Made by a program: the position numbers and the translations under genes
Shown: positions 10,995 through 47,091 of the stretch, in pieces
Layout of the letters: the number at the start of each line of letters is the position of its first letter
How positions within the stretch are numbered: position 1 is the first letter of the stretch
NCBI RefSeq assembly: GCF_965641715.1
Contig: NZ_OZ282453.1
Direction: 5' to 3' (one strand)
Length of the DNA: 64,000 nt
Source of the DNA: Escherichia coli
Lineage (GTDB): Bacteria > Pseudomonadota > Gammaproteobacteria > Enterobacterales > Enterobacteriaceae
The notes under the pieces: model-generated
What the model was told of the DNA's origin: nothing
Databases searched by the model: none
Seen by the model: only the letters and a program-made list of their open reading frames with translations

Positions 10995-11741
10995 TTACTT
11001 CGCAATTCCTGGCTGGACGACATTCGGACGCCAGCTCTCCCAGTTAAAATTCACCCATCGCCCGCCGTTCATGGTCATGCGATCCATAATCCGCTCGCCG
11101 AGCAATGTTTTCATGGCCTCATAGTTCAGGTTTGTCAGCATTCCCACGCTACGCATCGACGCTGTCCGTCGATCAATAATCTGGTGCAGTACCACCTGCT
11201 CGTTTTTCGTCTCGCGCTGAATGCCAATTTCATCAAGAACCAGCAGATCCACTTCGCACAGTTCCCGCAAAAATTTTTCGCCTGACTGCCCGTCGTCATA
11301 GCTGGCGTGGAGGGCACTCATAACATCAGCCACGGTAACCACAATCACTGTCTGACCGTCTTTCAGCAGGCGATTCCCGATAGCTGCTGCTAAGTGGTTC
11401 TTCCCGGTACCAGGTTTTCCGCTAAACGCGAAATTTGTGCATCCGGTAACCAGTTCGTCAGCGATAGATTTCGCCAGACTCAACGCGTATCGCTGGCCGT
11501 CGTTCTGCACCTGGTAATTCGCAAACGAGCATTTACGGTGCAACGGCTGGATGCCTGAGCGATTCAGAATTTTTTCCACCCGCAACTGGCGATTCAGGCG
11601 GTTGATCTCCTCGCTACGTTTCTGGCCTTCAGCAAGTTGCCACTCGCGCCACTCCGCTACCGTTCTGAATGGGGCAGTTACATGTGGTGGGGTCAGTCTG
11701 CGGATACGCTCCAGAACGCCTCCTGTCGCAATATTTTTCAT
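10995..11741 (-). CDS. DnaC-like replicative helicase loader (YdaV-like, AAA+)
   Basis: Walker A GKPGTGKNHLAAAIG and Walker B LLVLDEIG; 248 aa; downstream of O-like gene. Confidence 0.85.
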   Translation of the reverse strand: MKNIATGGVLERIRRLTPPHVTAPFRTVAEWREWQLAEGQKRSEEINRLNRQLRVEKILNRSGIQPLHRKCSFANYQVQNDGQRYALSLAKSIADELVTGCTNFAFSGKPGTGKNHLAAAIGNRLLKDGQTVIVVTVADVMSALHASYDDGQSGEKFLRELCEVDLLVLDEIGIQRETKNEQVVLHQIIDRRTASMRSVGMLTNLNYEAMKTLLGERIMDRMTMNGGRWVNFNWESWRPNVVQPGIAK

Positions 11742-11747
11742 GGTCTG

Positions 11748-12536
11748 TTACCCCCTGAAGCCTGGCGGGATCGCACTATCCGGTAACGAAACGGTGTTAA
11801 CCTGTCGGAGTAACGTCTCAGGTCGAACACCTTTCGGCGCGAACAAGCCCTGGTATTCATTAGCAATGCTGTGTCGAATCACCTGCTCAGGTGAAAAACC
11901 CTGCTGGCGGAATTTTTCCAGCTCTCGTATCGCCCCGTTAGCGCCCTGCTCCGTTCGAATCGGTTTTCGCAATGCCTGCCTGAACTGAACCCACTCATGC
12001 CAGAGTGTTTCCGGCAACCAGTCAGGCAGCTCGATAGCCTCCGGCTCGAATTTTTTAGACGCTCGTTTTTGGCGAAGGGGATTTAGGGGGAGATCAGTAT
12101 TTATATCTTCCTCTTCCTCTTCCTCTGGTAACGCTTTTTGATCCGTTTGTGTAACGCTGCCAGCGTTACCTTTTCGTTTCAGTTCGCGTATTTTTGTAAC
12201 TCGCTCGTTTGTAACCGCCCGTTTTTTAGAGCTTTTTCCGTTATGACGTTCAAAGTTAGGTAGAGAAAGCCCACCGTCATTTTCGACCAGCCATCCAACC
12301 TGAATTAACGCATCAGCAAAACCAGCCATAAAAGTGATGCGATCTATTGCACTTTTTGTAACGCCGCGAGCGTTACAATCTGCATTACCGTCTATCATTT
12401 GTTGATCCGCCCATGCCCAGAAGCGAATAACCTTCCCTAATGCGGCATCTGGATCAATATTCAGAATCTCAGCAAGCCTGAATATTTCCGGCTTATCCGG
12501 CGTAATAACTTCGAGCTTTATCCAGTTTGAAGCCAT
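11748..12536 (-). CDS. phage replication initiation protein (O-like / YdaU-like)
   Basis: 262 aa; acidic linker EEEEEED; position between cII-like gene and DnaC-like loader; palindromic repeats inside and upstream. Confidence 0.7.
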   Translation of the reverse strand: MASNWIKLEVITPDKPEIFRLAEILNIDPDAALGKVIRFWAWADQQMIDGNADCNARGVTKSAIDRITFMAGFADALIQVGWLVENDGGLSLPNFERHNGKSSKKRAVTNERVTKIRELKRKGNAGSVTQTDQKALPEEEEEEDINTDLPLNPLRQKRASKKFEPEAIELPDWLPETLWHEWVQFRQALRKPIRTEQGANGAIRELEKFRQQGFSPEQVIRHSIANEYQGLFAPKGVRPETLLRQVNTVSLPDSAIPPGFRG

Positions 12537-12568
12537 TTGTTTTCACCTTGTAACGCTCGCAGCGTTAC
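12151..12568. repeat. three copies of a 19-bp palindrome GTAACGC-N5-GCGTTAC (12151..12169, 12358..12376, 12550..12568) plus half-sites; candidate origin iterons/operators
   Basis: Read directly from sequence; two copies inside the O-like gene, one in its upstream intergenic region. Confidence 0.6.
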
Positions 12569-12613
12569 ATTTAACTGATACCGAACAAAACAGTCCGGCA
12601 CGATTAATTTCAA

Positions 12614-13036
12614 TCAATGCACTACAACAGAATCGCCAGGCGACCCGCCGCCGCTGAAATGTGCTTTACGGTAAACGGCCTGGACTGCATCATCATGCGC
12701 ATCAATTGCCGTACTCAACGCTTCCTGCGCCGCCAGTAATGCACGGCGTTCCAGGGTATCGAAGATGCAGAGTCGGTGACGCAGCTCGCGCGGAAGAATT
12801 GCCAGAACCGCAGGGATCAGTGTCTGAATTTTTTCCCTTTGCGCTTTCGTTTCGCCTTTCAACCAGCGGTGATAGATGTTCTGCTGATTGTTCCAGTCCT
12901 TGCCTGGTACCAGCGGCAATTCGCCGCCCCCCTGGCGCAGATATTCTTCAGTAATTGCATTAGCTACCCACGCCTGCCCTTTTTCGGCTGCCAGGGCTAA
13001 CAACACTGATTCGATGTGCTCATGCCTGATTTTCAT
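12614..13036 (-). CDS. ydaT: YdaT-like protein (CII-like domain; toxic in Rac when derepressed)
   Basis: 140 aa; position immediately downstream of cro-like gene, overlapping its 3' end, as in Rac ydaS-ydaT. Confidence 0.5.
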   Translation of the reverse strand: MKIRHEHIESVLLALAAEKGQAWVANAITEEYLRQGGGELPLVPGKDWNNQQNIYHRWLKGETKAQREKIQTLIPAVLAILPRELRHRLCIFDTLERRALLAAQEALSTAIDAHDDAVQAVYRKAHFSGGGSPGDSVVVH

Positions 13037-13295
13037 GAATCAACTCCTGTGCATTTTGTGTGTTAGCCTTGCATCCAACAGGTAAACCGTCGGTTGGGTT
13101 CGGGTAGATATCAGGCCGGAGTTCATGAGGTGTAACCTCGAAATTCGTAGCCTCTGCGATACGCAATACCTTTTCAGGGCTTAACTGACTACGTCCAGTA
13201 GCAACGAGGCTAATCATTGATTGCGAACAACCAGCCAGCGCGGCCAAACAAGACTGTCGTACACGATTTTTTTTCAAATATTCATCTAATGTCAT
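13020..13295 (-). CDS. ydaS: Cro-like HTH protein (YdaS-like)
   Basis: 91 aa from MTLDEYLKKNRVRQSCLAALAGCSQSMISL (HTH); divergent from repressor gene. Confidence 0.65.
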   Translation of the reverse strand: MTLDEYLKKNRVRQSCLAALAGCSQSMISLVATGRSQLSPEKVLRIAEATNFEVTPHELRPDIYPNPTDGLPVGCKANTQNAQELIHENQA

Positions 13296-13399: not shown

Positions 13400-13864
13400 A
13401 TGAGAAGAAAACGCGAAGAAATCGCATCGCCGGAAGCTACGCAACGTCTGCGCGCAATCTGGGATGCAAAAAAGAGAGAGCTCAAACTGACTCAGGAGCT
13501 TGCTGCCGAGCTAATGGGTTTTGAGGCGCAATCTGCGGTTAGCCATTATCTCAACGGAAAGGCTCCACTTAATACTGATGCGGCATTAAAATTCGCTGTA
13601 TTACTAAGAGTTAAGCCTGAAGAGTTGAGGCCTGATTTAGCTGATCTGATGAATTACGTCCGTTCCTCAGGAACTTATGACGAAAGTTTCGAAGGCGAAG
13701 GTTGGCGGATGGTTAACAAGCAACAGGCTGATTTACTGGACCTTTTTGATATCCTTCCCGAATCAGAAAAAGCAAAACTAATCGAAAGGCTTAAAGGCCA
13801 GAATGAACTCTACAAAGAAGCGTTTGAAAATATGCTGGCAGCTCAAAAACGCATGAAGAAATAG
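13400..13864 (+). CDS. prophage repressor, DicA/RacR-like XRE-family HTH
   Basis: 154 aa; N-terminal HTH; C-terminus LDLFDILPESEKAKLIERLK resembles DicA C-terminal region. Confidence 0.7.
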   Translation: MRRKREEIASPEATQRLRAIWDAKKRELKLTQELAAELMGFEAQSAVSHYLNGKAPLNTDAALKFAVLLRVKPEELRPDLADLMNYVRSSGTYDESFEGEGWRMVNKQQADLLDLFDILPESEKAKLIERLKGQNELYKEAFENMLAAQKRMKK

Positions 13865-46029: not shown

Positions 46030-47091
46030 TTATTTTTCGCTGGGCGTTTTGCCTTTTTGCAGCGTTTCTTTCACCTGACCGATAAGCTGACGACGGAAAT
46101 CCCCGAGGCGAGGTTTGTCATCGTCAATCCACGGCAGTGGGCGGCAAAGCTCCATAGCTTTAATCCCGAGTCGTGCCGTCAGAAGCCCAGCACCAATCCC
46201 CTGAGCTGCGCGGGTAGACAAACGAGCAGCGAGATCTTGCGACATCCAGTCCATCCCCACTTCGCGCACCAATTCGCTGGCTCCGGCGAAAGCGATATTC
46301 AGCAATACCAGCTTGAACAGGCGCAAACGGCTGTAATACCCCAGTTCAATGCCATACAGCGTGGCGATGCGATTAATCAAACGCAGATTGCGCCAGGCGA
46401 TAAATGCCATATCCACCAGCGCCAGCGGGCTGACCGCAATCATCAACGTTGATTCCGCTGCCGAACGGCTGATTTCGCGCCGCGCCTGGGCATCTAAAAC
46501 TGGCTGGACCAAATGCGCATACAAACTGACCACTTCACGGTCGTTTTGCGTTTCATGGATTGAGGCATACCAGCGTTGCAGCGCCGGATGTGACTGATCG
46601 ATGCCCGCCTGCTGCGCCAGTTTTTCGCAAAATGCGCGGCCTTTGCCCGTGCCGTGGCTATGCAATAAATCACGCGCTTCGTCGCGTTCATGGGCGCGCT
46701 GTCGCAAGCGCCATAAGCGCCGCCACTCTGTTACCACGGAACCTACGCCAGCGCCGATAATCAATGCCCCAGCGGCACATCCACCCAGCGCTACCCAGTC
46801 CTGGGTTTGCCAGGCATTCATTGTCCACTGTATACCCTGCCCGACAACGCTTGCGCCAAACAGAGCCAGCCCGCCCATCACCATTTTGCGCCACAGGCTG
46901 CGTTTCGGACGTAACGCTGCGTCCATTACCGCTTCGACTTGCCCCTCTTCTTCCTGCGCTTCGTCGAGCGTGGCCGGGGCAAAATTTTGCGCCTGATTTT
47001 CGTCAAAGGTCTGCTGCGCCCTGAATTTTGGATTCTGATCGACCTCCAGCGGACCGTCGAAATCAATACGTGGTTTTAACGGTTCGGTCAT
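46030..47091 (-). CDS. ycjF: inner-membrane protein YcjF (DUF697)
   Basis: 353 aa; overlaps ycjX stop (ATGA). Confidence 0.85.

What the first reader, a model, noticed from the sequence alone, without database searches (positions are those of the whole stretch)
12151..12568. Three copies of a 19-bp palindrome GTAACGC-N5-GCGTTAC at the phage replication initiator gene
Seen in sequence at 12151..12169, 12358..12376 and 12550..12568, with extra half-sites (GGTAACGC at 12128, TGTAAC at 12195 and 12209). Two copies lie inside the O-like gene and one in its 5' intergenic region. In lambda the origin iterons lie inside the O gene, so these are candidate origin iterons or binding sites for the O-like or cII-like protein.
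Basis: seen in the sequence. Interest (0 to 1): 0.55.

Follow-up and report, generated by a model that had tools for sequence, protein, structure and literature searches.

The report
Candidate replication origin inside phage initiator gene
The three 19-bp palindromes are real and are conserved as DNA rather than as protein code across phages of many bacterial genera. They are most likely the sites where this Rac-type prophage's replication initiator binds its own gene to start DNA copying, a lambda-like arrangement in an initiator family where I found no origin described.

Summary
**Observation.** Confirmed. GTAACGC-N5-GCGTTAC occurs perfectly at 12151, 12358 and 12550 and nowhere else in the 64 kb. 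Seven of the window's 22 half-site 7-mers lie within 500 bp.

**Setting.** The sites lie in and just upstream of the initiator gene of a Rac-type E. coli prophage, in the order ydaS/ydaT/ydaU/ydaV-like. The initiator (11748..12536, minus strand) has a predicted winged-helix N-domain with no Pfam family. Its C-domain is DnaT-like.

**Comparative evidence.**
- The same palindrome sits at the same two gene positions in phages of Enterobacter, Klebsiella, Xanthomonas, Pseudomonas, Ralstonia and Pusillimonas.
- It is kept in either permitted reading frame and forces rare codons in GC-rich phages.
- More distant homologues carry a different palindrome (GTCACGC, GTAGACG or GTCCGC), again twice per gene.
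- Of 158 diverse loci, 123 have such a matched pair. Controls gave 0-3 of 158 flanks and 0 of 790 codon shuffles.
- Flanking genes, including the cII-like YdaT, do not travel with the sites.

**Verdict.** The sites are most likely initiator-binding sites forming a lambda-like origin inside the initiator gene. Binding and origin activity are inferred, not shown. The cII-like reading is rejected. I rate it a new member of a known kind, of moderate interest.

The parts
12550..12568 (.). Upstream palindrome GTAACGC-TCGCA-GCGTTAC (gene nt -31..-13), between the ydaT-like stop codon and the initiator's Shine-Dalgarno sequence. Specific to the Rac-like lineage.
   Evidence: An upstream copy was found only in Rac-like loci. 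Half-sites are invariant and the spacer variable among 48 close relatives.
12358..12376 (.). In-gene palindrome, site 1 (gene nt 161-179; codons C-N-A-R-G-V-T inside the N-domain).
   Evidence: The homologous site at nt 149-167 is conserved in Enterobacter, Klebsiella, Xanthomonas, Pseudomonas and Ralstonia phages. Rare GGT and GTT codons are fixed in 20 of 20 high-GC genes.
12382..12388 (.). Degenerate half-site GCATTAC (coding strand GTAATGC, gene nt 149-155). This is the ancestral left arm of site 1, displaced by a 12-nt insertion, giving a -> -> <- arrangement with a 12-bp period.
   Evidence: Close relatives Rac442 and 666R9 still have a perfect GGTAACGC here.
12151..12169 (.). In-gene palindrome, site 2 (gene nt 368-386), in the region coding the linker between the N- and C-domains. 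This is the position conserved in all lineages.
   Evidence: It is kept in reading frame 1 in 32 distinct genes and in frame 2 in 46.
12128..12134 (.). Extra perfect half-site GTAACGC (coding strand GCGTTAC, gene nt 403-409; codons A-L-P), 23 nt (start to start) beyond the right arm of site 2.
   Evidence: It is conserved as GCG TTA CCx in the GTAAC-type lineages and replaced by GCGGAC(C) in the GTCCGC-type lineages epsilon15 and phiPSA1.
12196..12202 (.). One-mismatch half-site GTAACTC (gene nt 335-341).
   Evidence: Weak on its own; in relatives this region holds the outer arms of the -> -> <- <- array.
12093..12127 (.). Low-GC tract that is purine-rich on the coding strand (GAGGAAGAG...GATATAAATACTGATC), immediately beyond site 2 and its extra half-site. 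Candidate unwinding region (inference only).
   Evidence: GC 0.375-0.40 and AT skew down to -0.68 in 40-nt windows. An equivalent GA-rich tract coding 'REEKRRED' follows site 2 in all lineages.
11748..12536 (-). Initiator gene (YdaU-like / O-like, 262 aa). N-domain is aa 1-118 (12183..12536); DnaT-like C-domain is aa 170-262 (11751..12029).
   Evidence: PHROG 2509 'replication initiation protein', E = 4e-88. No Pfam hit. The C-domain matches PDB 2ru8 DnaT at E = 1.5e-4. The N-domain model has pLDDT 81.7 and its fold matches winged-helix and replisome-organizer N-domains. Only the C-terminal 124 aa are shared with K-12 YdaU, at 81% identity.
10995..11741 (-). DnaC-like helicase loader (YdaV-like), the presumed partner of the initiator.
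   Evidence: PHROG 50, E = 7e-83. RefSeq calls the homologue ydaV.

Best explanation
The palindromes are cis-acting DNA sites recognised by dimers of the N-terminal winged-helix domain of the protein in whose gene they lie, the YdaU-like/O-like initiator. Together with extra half-sites they form the prophage's origin of replication, placed inside and just upstream of the initiator gene as in phage lambda (ori in O) and SPP1 (oriL in gene 38).

Proposed mechanism:
1. After derepression, transcription from the ydaS-side promoter produces the initiator.
2. Its N-domain binds site 2 plus the flanking half-sites in the linker-coding region, and also site 1 and the upstream site.
3. The bound sites, about 200 bp apart, may be bridged.
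4. The adjacent low-GC purine-rich tract opens.
5. The DnaT-like C-domain, with the DnaC-like YdaV protein, brings in host DnaB helicase.

Shown here: the sites exist; they are selected at the DNA level; they co-vary with the initiator's N-domain and with nothing else; they are unique in the phage genomes checked; and the domain architecture is as described.

Inferred: that the N-domain is the binder, that the region fires as an origin, the looping, the unwinding site and the helicase recruitment.
For: 1. Enrichment.
2. Deep conservation: the same 19-mer sits at gene nt ~149-161 and ~356-368 in phages of E. coli, Enterobacter, Klebsiella, Xanthomonas/Xylella, Pseudomonas, Ralstonia and Pusillimonas, at 45-70% aa identity.
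3. Selection is on DNA, not peptide. Site 2 is read in frame 1 (V-T-x-x-A-L) in 32 distinct genes and in frame 2 (G-N-A-x-S-V-T) in 46; the third frame would create a TAA stop. In 20 high-GC genes chosen on the peptide alone, Gly is GGT in 20/20 (background 23%) and Val is GTT in 20/20 (background 25%).
4. Within the Rac-like lineage, 1 of 42 half-site positions varies, against 7 of 15 spacer positions (p = 1.7e-4) and 68 of 483 elsewhere.
5. Concerted covariation. Distant homologues carry other palindromes, each at least twice per gene: GTCACGC-N5, GTAGACG-N6 and GTCCGC-N7. Of 158 diverse loci, 123 have a matched perfect pair, against 3/158 and 0/158 flanking controls and 0/790 codon shuffles.
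6. The motif type follows the N-domain clade, not the host. Ralstonia phages YL1 and Raharianne differ, as do Pseudomonas phages PAN70 and phiPSA1, and enteric phages TL-2011b and epsilon15.
7. Flanking genes are not shared: YdaT-like in 4, YdaS-like in 1, RacR-like in 0 and YdaV-like in 13 of 171 loci.
8. Array architecture resembling binding-site arrays of known origins. In the linker-coding region most lineages have -> -> <- <- half-sites with an 11-12 bp period.
9. In the complete genomes of TL-2011b and epsilon15, the lineage's dyad occurs only in the initiator gene.
10. Modularity like lambda O. K-12 YdaU shares only the C-terminal half, lacks these palindromes, and has its own repeats at equivalent positions.
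11. The N-domain is predicted to be a winged helix and resembles phage replisome-organizer N-domains. The C-domain resembles DnaT.
12. Precedent: SPP1 gp38 binds the oriL repeats inside gene 38 (PMC6316719). Lambda O and ori-lambda are established knowledge, cited from memory.
Confidence: 0.6

Rival explanations
1. The initiator binds the sites, but they act mainly in regulation: autorepression or a transcriptional roadblock of its own gene, or origin 'handcuffing' for copy control. The true unwinding origin would lie elsewhere.
For: All three sites are inverted repeats, the form that plasmid Rep dimers use as operators (established knowledge). The upstream copy abuts the Shine-Dalgarno sequence. 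There is no clear AT-rich unwinding element.
Against: Most lineages have no upstream copy. Sites 150 and 360 nt inside the coding region are odd operators. The linker-region arrays with an 11-12 bp period resemble origin binding-site arrays. No other repeat cluster was seen in the phage genomes checked for this motif. This rival is not exclusive of the best explanation.
Confidence: 0.17
2. The palindromes act as hairpins in nucleic acid rather than as duplex protein sites. They could be mRNA stem-loops affecting stability, processing or translation of the initiator message, or single-stranded DNA hairpins used for priming or primosome assembly.
For: Each forms a stable 8-10-bp RNA hairpin, -10.9 to -15.4 kcal/mol with z about -3.2 to -3.5. 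Arms conserved with variable loops also fit a hairpin. The C-domain resembles the ssDNA-binding protein DnaT.
Against: A structure-only element does not need separate copies to share one sequence or to change in concert between lineages. Within the large GTAAC clade, stem sequence is held without compensatory variation across 45-70% aa identity. Additional unpaired half-sites in direct orientation at an 11-12 bp period cannot form hairpins. The upstream hairpin leaves the Shine-Dalgarno sequence free.
Confidence: 0.08
3. The sites are operators for the neighbouring cII-like (YdaT), Cro-like (YdaS) or RacR-like regulators.
For: They lie close to the immunity region, and one copy sits in the ydaT-ydaU gap.
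Against: Homologous loci keep the palindromes without these genes: YdaT-like in 4/171, YdaS-like in 1/171 and RacR-like in 0/171. Published YdaT sites are TTGATT-N6-AATCAA in the racR-ydaS region and at the ydaT start (PMC9986795; PMC11879457). Near-matches to that motif occur elsewhere in the window, at 12600, 13026 and 13217.
Confidence: 0.02
4. The sites are a by-product of coding constraints or chance, or a site for a host factor.
For: Both in-gene copies encode a similar peptide in this window (N-A-x-x-V-T).
Against: Both frames are used and rare codons are fixed. One copy is non-coding. Shuffles give 0 of 790 matched pairs. The motif type differs between phages of the same host species and is shared across distant hosts.
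Confidence: 0.02

Closest known systems
Phage lambda ori within gene O (O protein / iterons), and the equivalent arrangements in other lambdoid phages such as P22 gene 18 (established knowledge, from memory)
   Same: The initiator gene contains its own origin. The binding sites are about 19 bp with dyad symmetry and lie in DNA coding the inter-domain linker. The initiator is modular: a type-specific N-domain swaps together with its sites, and a conserved C-domain works with the helicase loader. The gene sits in an early operon after cro/cII analogues and is followed by a P/DnaC-like loader gene.
   Different: The N-domain has no Pfam match, including the lambda O family. The C-domain is DnaT-like. 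There is no block of four tandem iterons: here there are two in-gene sites about 207 bp apart plus an upstream site, and relatives have a -> -> <- <- half-site array. No marked AT-rich region is present. One site lies inside the coding sequence of the DNA-binding domain itself.
Bacillus phage SPP1 replisome organizer gp38 and oriL inside gene 38 (PMC6316719)
   Same: The origin-binding protein binds repeats located within its own gene. The N-domain model resembles phage 'replisome organizer' N-domains in BFVD (E = 4.5e-4 and 7.5e-3). A loader and/or helicase gene lies downstream.
   Different: SPP1 uses direct repeats plus a clear AT-rich unwinding element and has a second origin, oriR. No sequence-level homology was detected. 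The hosts are Gram-positive.
E. coli K-12 Rac prophage YdaU/YdaV and its origin oriJ (an active origin according to PMC3945230; Potrykus et al. 2000 not readable here)
   Same: Same prophage type and gene order. The C-terminal 124 aa are 81% identical, and the DnaC-like YdaV is shared.
   Different: The K-12 N-domain (DUF1376 type) is unrelated in sequence and has none of these palindromes. It carries its own TGTTCAAAC / GATGTTCAA repeats at analogous positions. The published oriJ therefore cannot simply be transferred to this element.
Iteron plasmids (Rep proteins of pPS10, F, R6K; established knowledge)
   Same: Winged-helix initiators. Inverted repeats are bound by dimers. Sites are spaced by about one helical turn.
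   Different: Plasmid origins use tandem direct iterons bound by monomers, outside the rep gene, usually with DnaA boxes. Here the sites are inverted, lie within the gene, and no DnaA box is nearby.

Membership tests
Lambda-type origin embedded in the initiator gene | Modular initiator: a type-specific N-terminal DNA-binding domain and a C-terminal domain coupled to the helicase loader | tested here: met
   Only the C-terminal 124 aa are shared with K-12 YdaU, at 81% identity. The N-domain is predicted to be a winged helix. The C-domain is DnaT-like. A DnaC-like gene lies downstream.
Lambda-type origin embedded in the initiator gene | Repeated, dyad-symmetric sites inside the initiator's own coding sequence, specific to the initiator type | tested here: met
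   at least two copies per gene, with five lineage-specific types.
Lambda-type origin embedded in the initiator gene | Tandem cluster of about four sites in the linker-coding region | tested here: inconclusive
   Relatives have four to six half-sites at an 11-12 bp period there. The window has one palindrome plus a perfect and a one-mismatch half-site.
Lambda-type origin embedded in the initiator gene | Adjacent AT-rich DNA-unwinding element | tested here: inconclusive
   There is only a modest low-GC (0.375-0.40), strongly strand-skewed purine tract at 12093-12127.
Lambda-type origin embedded in the initiator gene | Initiator binds the sites, and the fragment supports replication when initiator and loader are supplied | not testable with these tools
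   Needs EMSA or footprinting and an ori-plasmid assay.
Lambda O protein family (sequence homology) | Match to the lambda O N-terminal family | tested here: not met
   No Pfam family matches even at E <= 10. Only a PHROG 678 'O-like' match covers aa 77-236.
K-12 Rac YdaU (DUF1376) / oriJ | DUF1376-type N-domain | tested here: not met
   BLASTP shows no N-terminal similarity. hhalign probability is 0.2%. BFVD shows only a weak fold-level resemblance (E 0.05-0.5).
PHROG 2509/9474 'replication initiation protein' | Profile match over the whole N-domain | tested here: met
   E = 8.6e-65 for aa 1-118. Epsilon15 and Raharianne homologues match the same PHROGs.
Iteron-plasmid origin | Tandem direct repeats outside the rep gene, plus DnaA boxes | tested here: not met
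   Repeats are inverted and intragenic. There is no DnaA box between 10848 and 13981.
Intrinsic terminator | GC-rich hairpin followed by a U-run on the transcribed strand | tested here: not met
   The scan flags 12151-12169 only on the antisense (+) strand. The count of 3 is close to the 2.0 expected. No U-run follows on the sense strand.
YdaT (CII-like) operator | TTGATT-N6-AATCAA inverted repeat (PMC9986795) | tested here: not met
   The palindrome sequence is unrelated to this motif. Near-matches to the motif lie elsewhere in the window. YdaT is absent from 167 of 171 homologous loci.

The most novel reading that the evidence does not exclude
The family may be 'self-referential'. Site 1 is written into the codons of the initiator's own DNA-binding domain (G-N-A-x-x-V-T). 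A specificity switch such as GTAAC to GTCAC is then necessarily coupled to an N-to-H change in the protein, and both distant copies must change together. The GN(A/G/D)x peptide repeats of the linker would be a by-product of growth of the 12-nt half-site array. If the encoded residues also contact DNA, this would be a natural system in which a protein's recognition code and its target are the same piece of DNA. It would also be an origin built from two clusters about 200 bp apart that must be bridged.
Probability: 0.2. Interest if true: 0.6.

Novelty: new member of a known kind. Interest (0 to 1): 0.42.

Why it matters
This gives a concrete, testable origin and recognition sequence for a widespread phage and prophage initiator family (PHROG 2509) that has no Pfam model and, as far as I could find, no described origin. 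Members occur in E. coli Rac-like prophages, epsilon15-like and TL-2011b-like podoviruses, and Xanthomonas, Pseudomonas, Ralstonia and Vibrio phages.

It shows that the K-12 Rac origin (oriJ) cannot be assumed for Rac-like prophages carrying this other N-domain.

The natural set of at least four initiator/site specificities (GTAACGC, GTCACGC, GTAGACG, GTCCGC) is a ready-made system for studying initiator-origin co-evolution and incompatibility. It could also supply orthogonal replicons.

Tried and rejected
- **Pfam:** scans of the whole protein and of 14 N-domains found nothing.
- **NCBIfam:** only a sub-threshold DnaT match.
- **Literature:** no paper describes an origin for this family. The oriJ plasmid paper (Potrykus 2000) is not held. 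A whole-word 'oriJ' search returned only an author name.
- **First IMG/VR scan:** it returned only near-identical Rac-like loci. These served the polymorphism test but added no diversity. Re-querying with distant members placed first solved this.
- **Homology to K-12 YdaU N-domain:** hhalign found none.
- **Solved structures:** the profile search found nothing for the N-domain, and Foldseek against PDB was not significant.
- **Promoter/terminator scan:** at chance level.
- **DnaA boxes:** none nearby.
- **AT-rich unwinding element:** no convincing one.
- **Specificity residues:** residue 109 is T, A, K or D according to motif type, but this is confounded by phylogeny, so I do not use it as evidence.
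- **Helical phasing:** centre-to-centre distances range from 192 to 312 bp with no common phase, so I make no looping-phase claim.

Full report
**1. Observation**

The window holds three perfect copies of GTAACGC-N5-GCGTTAC, at 12151-12169, 12358-12376 and 12550-12568. Allowing two mismatches, there is only one further hit in 64 kb, at 46911. Shuffles predict 0.18 hits. Seven of the window's 22 perfect half-site 7-mers fall within 12100-12600 (p = 2.8e-10).

All local genes are on the minus strand:
- a DnaC-like loader (10995-11741);
- the O-like initiator (11748-12536, 262 aa);
- a cII-like YdaT homologue (12614-13036);
- a Cro-like YdaS homologue.

A divergent RacR-like repressor gene lies on the plus strand (13400-13864).

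Two palindromes lie inside the initiator gene, at gene nt 161-179 and 368-386. The third lies in the 77-bp gap upstream and ends next to the AAGGTG ribosome-binding site.

**2. What the element is**

The region is 99.8% identical to a prophage in E. coli PEC41, with RefSeq names ydaT and ydaV. It is 92-96% identical to 'phage Rac' from strain 442/2 and to vB_EcoS-666R9. It is therefore a Rac-type lambdoid replication and immunity module.

Compared with K-12 Rac YdaU, the initiator shares only its C-terminal 124 residues, at 81% identity. The N-terminal ~138 residues are unrelated. This is the modular pattern known for lambda O, in which a type-specific N-domain travels with its own origin.

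- The N-domain has no Pfam family but belongs to PHROGs 2509/9474, 'replication initiation protein'.
- A model built on 48 diverse homologues (pLDDT 81.7) has a helix-helix ... helix-helix-beta-hairpin layout.
- Among predicted viral structures, the 48-homologue model matches 'replisome organizer' N-domains (E = 4.5e-4 and 7.5e-3) and, weakly, DUF1376 proteins.
- Residues 170-262 match the C-terminal domain of primosomal protein DnaT (PDB 2ru8, E = 1.5e-4).

**3. The palindromes are selected as DNA**

A tblastn search with the N-domain found homologues in 60 phage records. IMG/VR scans added 160 diverse loci.

*Conservation across hosts.* With each locus aligned on its start codon, the identical 19-mer sits at gene nt ~149-161 and ~356-368 in phages of Enterobacter, E. 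coli (TL-2011b), Klebsiella, Xanthomonas/Xylella, Pseudomonas and Ralstonia. It also sits there in a Pusillimonas 'plasmid'. These homologues are only 45-70% identical in amino-acid sequence.

*Reading frame.* Among 81 distinct GTAAC-type genes, site 2 is read as GTA ACG ... GCG TTA C (V-T-x-x-A-L) in 32 and as xGT AAC GCx ... GTT ACx (G-N-A-x-S-V-T) in 46. The third frame would create a TAA stop codon.

*Codon choice.* In 20 high-GC genes chosen only for the peptide GNAxxV[TS], Gly is GGT in 20/20 (background 23%). Val is GTT in 20/20 (background 25%). Asn is AAC in 20/20, and the fifth codon is always NGC.

*Polymorphism.* Within the Rac-like lineage (48 distinct sequences, at least 95% identical), 1 of 42 half-site positions varies. 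By comparison, 7 of 15 spacer positions vary (p = 1.7e-4), as do 68 of 483 other positions.

**4. Concerted covariation**

More distant homologues lack GTAACGC but carry another palindrome of the same general form, each at least twice per gene:

| Palindrome | Where found | Gene positions |
|---|---|---|
| GTCACGC-N5-GCGTGAC | 12 loci; Vibrio phage 1.211 has a GTCAC variant | ~158 and 348-402 |
| GTAGACG-N6-CGTCTAC | Ralstonia phage Raharianne and relatives | 154 and 370 |
| GTCCGC-N7-GCGGAC | epsilon15, 66FD, phiPSA1 and ~60 metagenomic loci | ~66 and 345-387 |
| GTTGCGC-N5-GCGCAAC | one locus | site 2 only |

In an unsupervised test, 123 of 158 diverse loci had two identical perfect 6+6 dyads at least 40 nt apart within gene nt -100 to +550. 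Equal-sized flanks gave 3/158 and 0/158, and codon-shuffled genes gave 0/790. Most of the 35 failures are the same motifs with one or two mismatches.

The motif type follows the N-domain clade, not the host. Ralstonia phages YL1 and Raharianne differ, as do Pseudomonas phages PAN70 and phiPSA1, and the enteric phages TL-2011b and epsilon15.

Flanking genes are not shared. In 171 loci, YdaT-like genes occur in 4, YdaS-like in 1, RacR-like in 0 and YdaV-like in 13.

In the complete genomes of TL-2011b and epsilon15, the lineage's dyad occurs only twice, both times in the initiator gene. The richly annotated epsilon15 record has no origin feature there.

**5. Architecture**

Mapping half-sites with up to one mismatch shows that site 2 is usually the core of a -> -> <- <- array with an 11-12 bp period:
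- TL-2011b: 346> 358> 370< 382<
- epsilon15: 334> 345> 357< 368<
- L101: 346> 358> 369> 381> 393< 404<

The array lies in the linker-coding region and is followed by a conserved GA-rich 'REEKRRED' tract.

It changes to GCGGAC(C) in GTCCGC-type phages.

In this window the map is -31> -19< | 149>' 161> 173< | 335<' 368> 380< 403<. A 12-nt insertion at site 1 created a new perfect palindrome beside the old left arm. Arrays appear to grow in 12-nt (4-codon) steps, which would explain the GN(A/G/D)x peptide repeats in the linkers of relatives.

**6. Mechanism**

The most economical reading is that dimers of the initiator's own N-domain bind these sites, and that the site cluster is the origin. This is the arrangement of lambda O with ori-lambda (established knowledge) and of SPP1 gp38 with oriL (PMC6316719). 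The DnaT-like C-domain and the DnaC-like YdaV would then load host DnaB. Because the sites lie within the early operon, early transcription would pass through them. In lambda, transcription through the origin helps activate it (established knowledge).

What is shown: existence of the sites, DNA-level selection, concerted covariation, exclusivity to the initiator gene, and the domain architecture.

What is inferred: the identity of the binder, origin firing, bridging of sites 192 and 207 bp apart, and unwinding at the low-GC purine tract at 12093-12127. That tract has GC of 0.375-0.40 and is not a strong unwinding element. No DnaA boxes are nearby.

**7. Rivals**

- *Regulatory operator or roadblock.* This is compatible with initiator binding and is not excluded. 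However, most lineages lack any upstream copy.
- *RNA or ssDNA hairpins.* The hairpins are stable (-11 to -15 kcal/mol, z about -3.3). This does not explain why separate copies share one sequence and change together, nor the direct-orientation half-sites.
- *YdaT (cII-like) binding.* Rejected, by the published YdaT motif TTGATT-N6-AATCAA (PMC9986795) and by the published YdaT footprints (PMC11879457).
- *Coding constraint, chance or a host factor.* Rejected and by the host/type mismatch.

**8. Comparison and novelty**

Functionally this behaves like a lambda- or SPP1-type origin embedded in the initiator gene. It is not a sequence member of the lambda O family or of the K-12 YdaU (DUF1376) family. 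It also fails the defining features of iteron-plasmid origins.

K-12 YdaU has its own TGTTCAAAC / GATGTTCAA repeats at equivalent positions (gene nt 147, 391-460). That parallel supports the general model, and it means oriJ data cannot be transferred to this element.

I found no publication describing this origin, but the searchable library is limited.

I rate it a new member of a known kind. The interest is moderate: the principle is expected, while the breadth, the frame-independence evidence and the set of natural specificities are useful.

Noticed in passing
L003 (E. coli K-12 NC_000913.3) 3266-3274 and 3510-3580, i.e. ydaU gene nt 147 and 391-460: K-12 YdaU has an unrelated DUF1376-type N-domain and none of the GTAACGC palindromes. 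It carries its own repeats, GATGTTCAA at nt 147 and 391 and TGTTCAAAC at 393>, 426> and 450<, at positions equivalent to sites 1 and 2. These may be the iterons of the experimentally known Rac origin oriJ.
   Followed up: partly
window 12600-12617, 13026-13043, 13217-13234: Three of the window's nine near-matches (1-2 mismatches) to the published YdaT motif TTGATT-N6-AATCAA cluster in the ydaT/ydaS region: one at the ydaT 3' end, one at the ydaS/ydaT junction and one inside ydaS. Window-wide enrichment is not significant (9 found, 5.5 expected).
   Followed up: partly
window 12377-12388 (gene nt 149-160): The Rac-like lineage has a 12-nt (4-codon) insertion, GGT AAT GCA GAT, before site 1. It leaves the ancestral left half-site (degenerate in the window, perfect in Rac442 and 666R9) next to a new perfect palindrome. 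Half-site arrays seem to grow by 12-nt duplications that keep the reading frame.
   Followed up: partly
L008, L010, L012, L260 gene nt ~330-400 (linker): Linker peptides such as KGNDAGNDAGVS and ANANGNGDGNAQGVS in Xanthomonas, Ralstonia and Pusillimonas homologues are translations of tandem GGTAACGNNNNN half-site units. This protein low-complexity repeat appears to be driven by a DNA-level array.
   Followed up: partly
L259 (CP088505.1, E. coli pE16EC1016-8, 52 kb) and L260 (NC_015459.1, Pusillimonas sp. T7-7, 41 kb): Two circular records filed as non-mobilizable plasmids carry this initiator with the same site map (149> 161< | 346> 358> 370< 382<). Their phage-like neighbours include CII, NinB and Rha. 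They may be phage-plasmids or circular phage genomes replicating from this module.
   Followed up: partly
alignment of 124 distinct N-domains, window residue 109: Residue 109, in the basic helix after the invariant F-x-R-H-N-G-x-S-A-K-x-R motif, is T in GTAAC-type proteins, mostly A in GTCAC-type, K in GTAGA-type and D/E in GTCCG-type. It is a candidate specificity determinant, but the correlation is confounded by phylogeny.
   Followed up: partly
L014/L258 (epsilon15) and L006 (Klebsiella phi3.2): Some members of the family have no DnaC-like loader or helicase gene next to the initiator; in epsilon15 the next gene is a RuvC-like resolvase. The DnaT-like C-domain may therefore recruit the host loading machinery on its own in those phages.
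   Followed up: no
window 12581-12600: A second hairpin, GCCGGAC-N6-GUUCGGU in RNA, lies in the ydaT-ydaU gap just upstream of the palindrome. It is not followed by a U-run. In 666R9 the stem is perfect (CCGAAC-N6-GTTCGG).
   Followed up: no
window 12151-12178, plus strand: The terminator scan flags site 2 plus CTTTTCGTTT as terminator-like on the strand antisense to the initiator gene. The overall count is at chance level (3 found, 2.0 expected).
   Followed up: partly
L007, L014, L015 (Vibrio 1.211, epsilon15, 66FD): In several lineages a C-5 cytosine methyltransferase gene lies immediately upstream of the initiator gene and overlaps its start.
   Followed up: no
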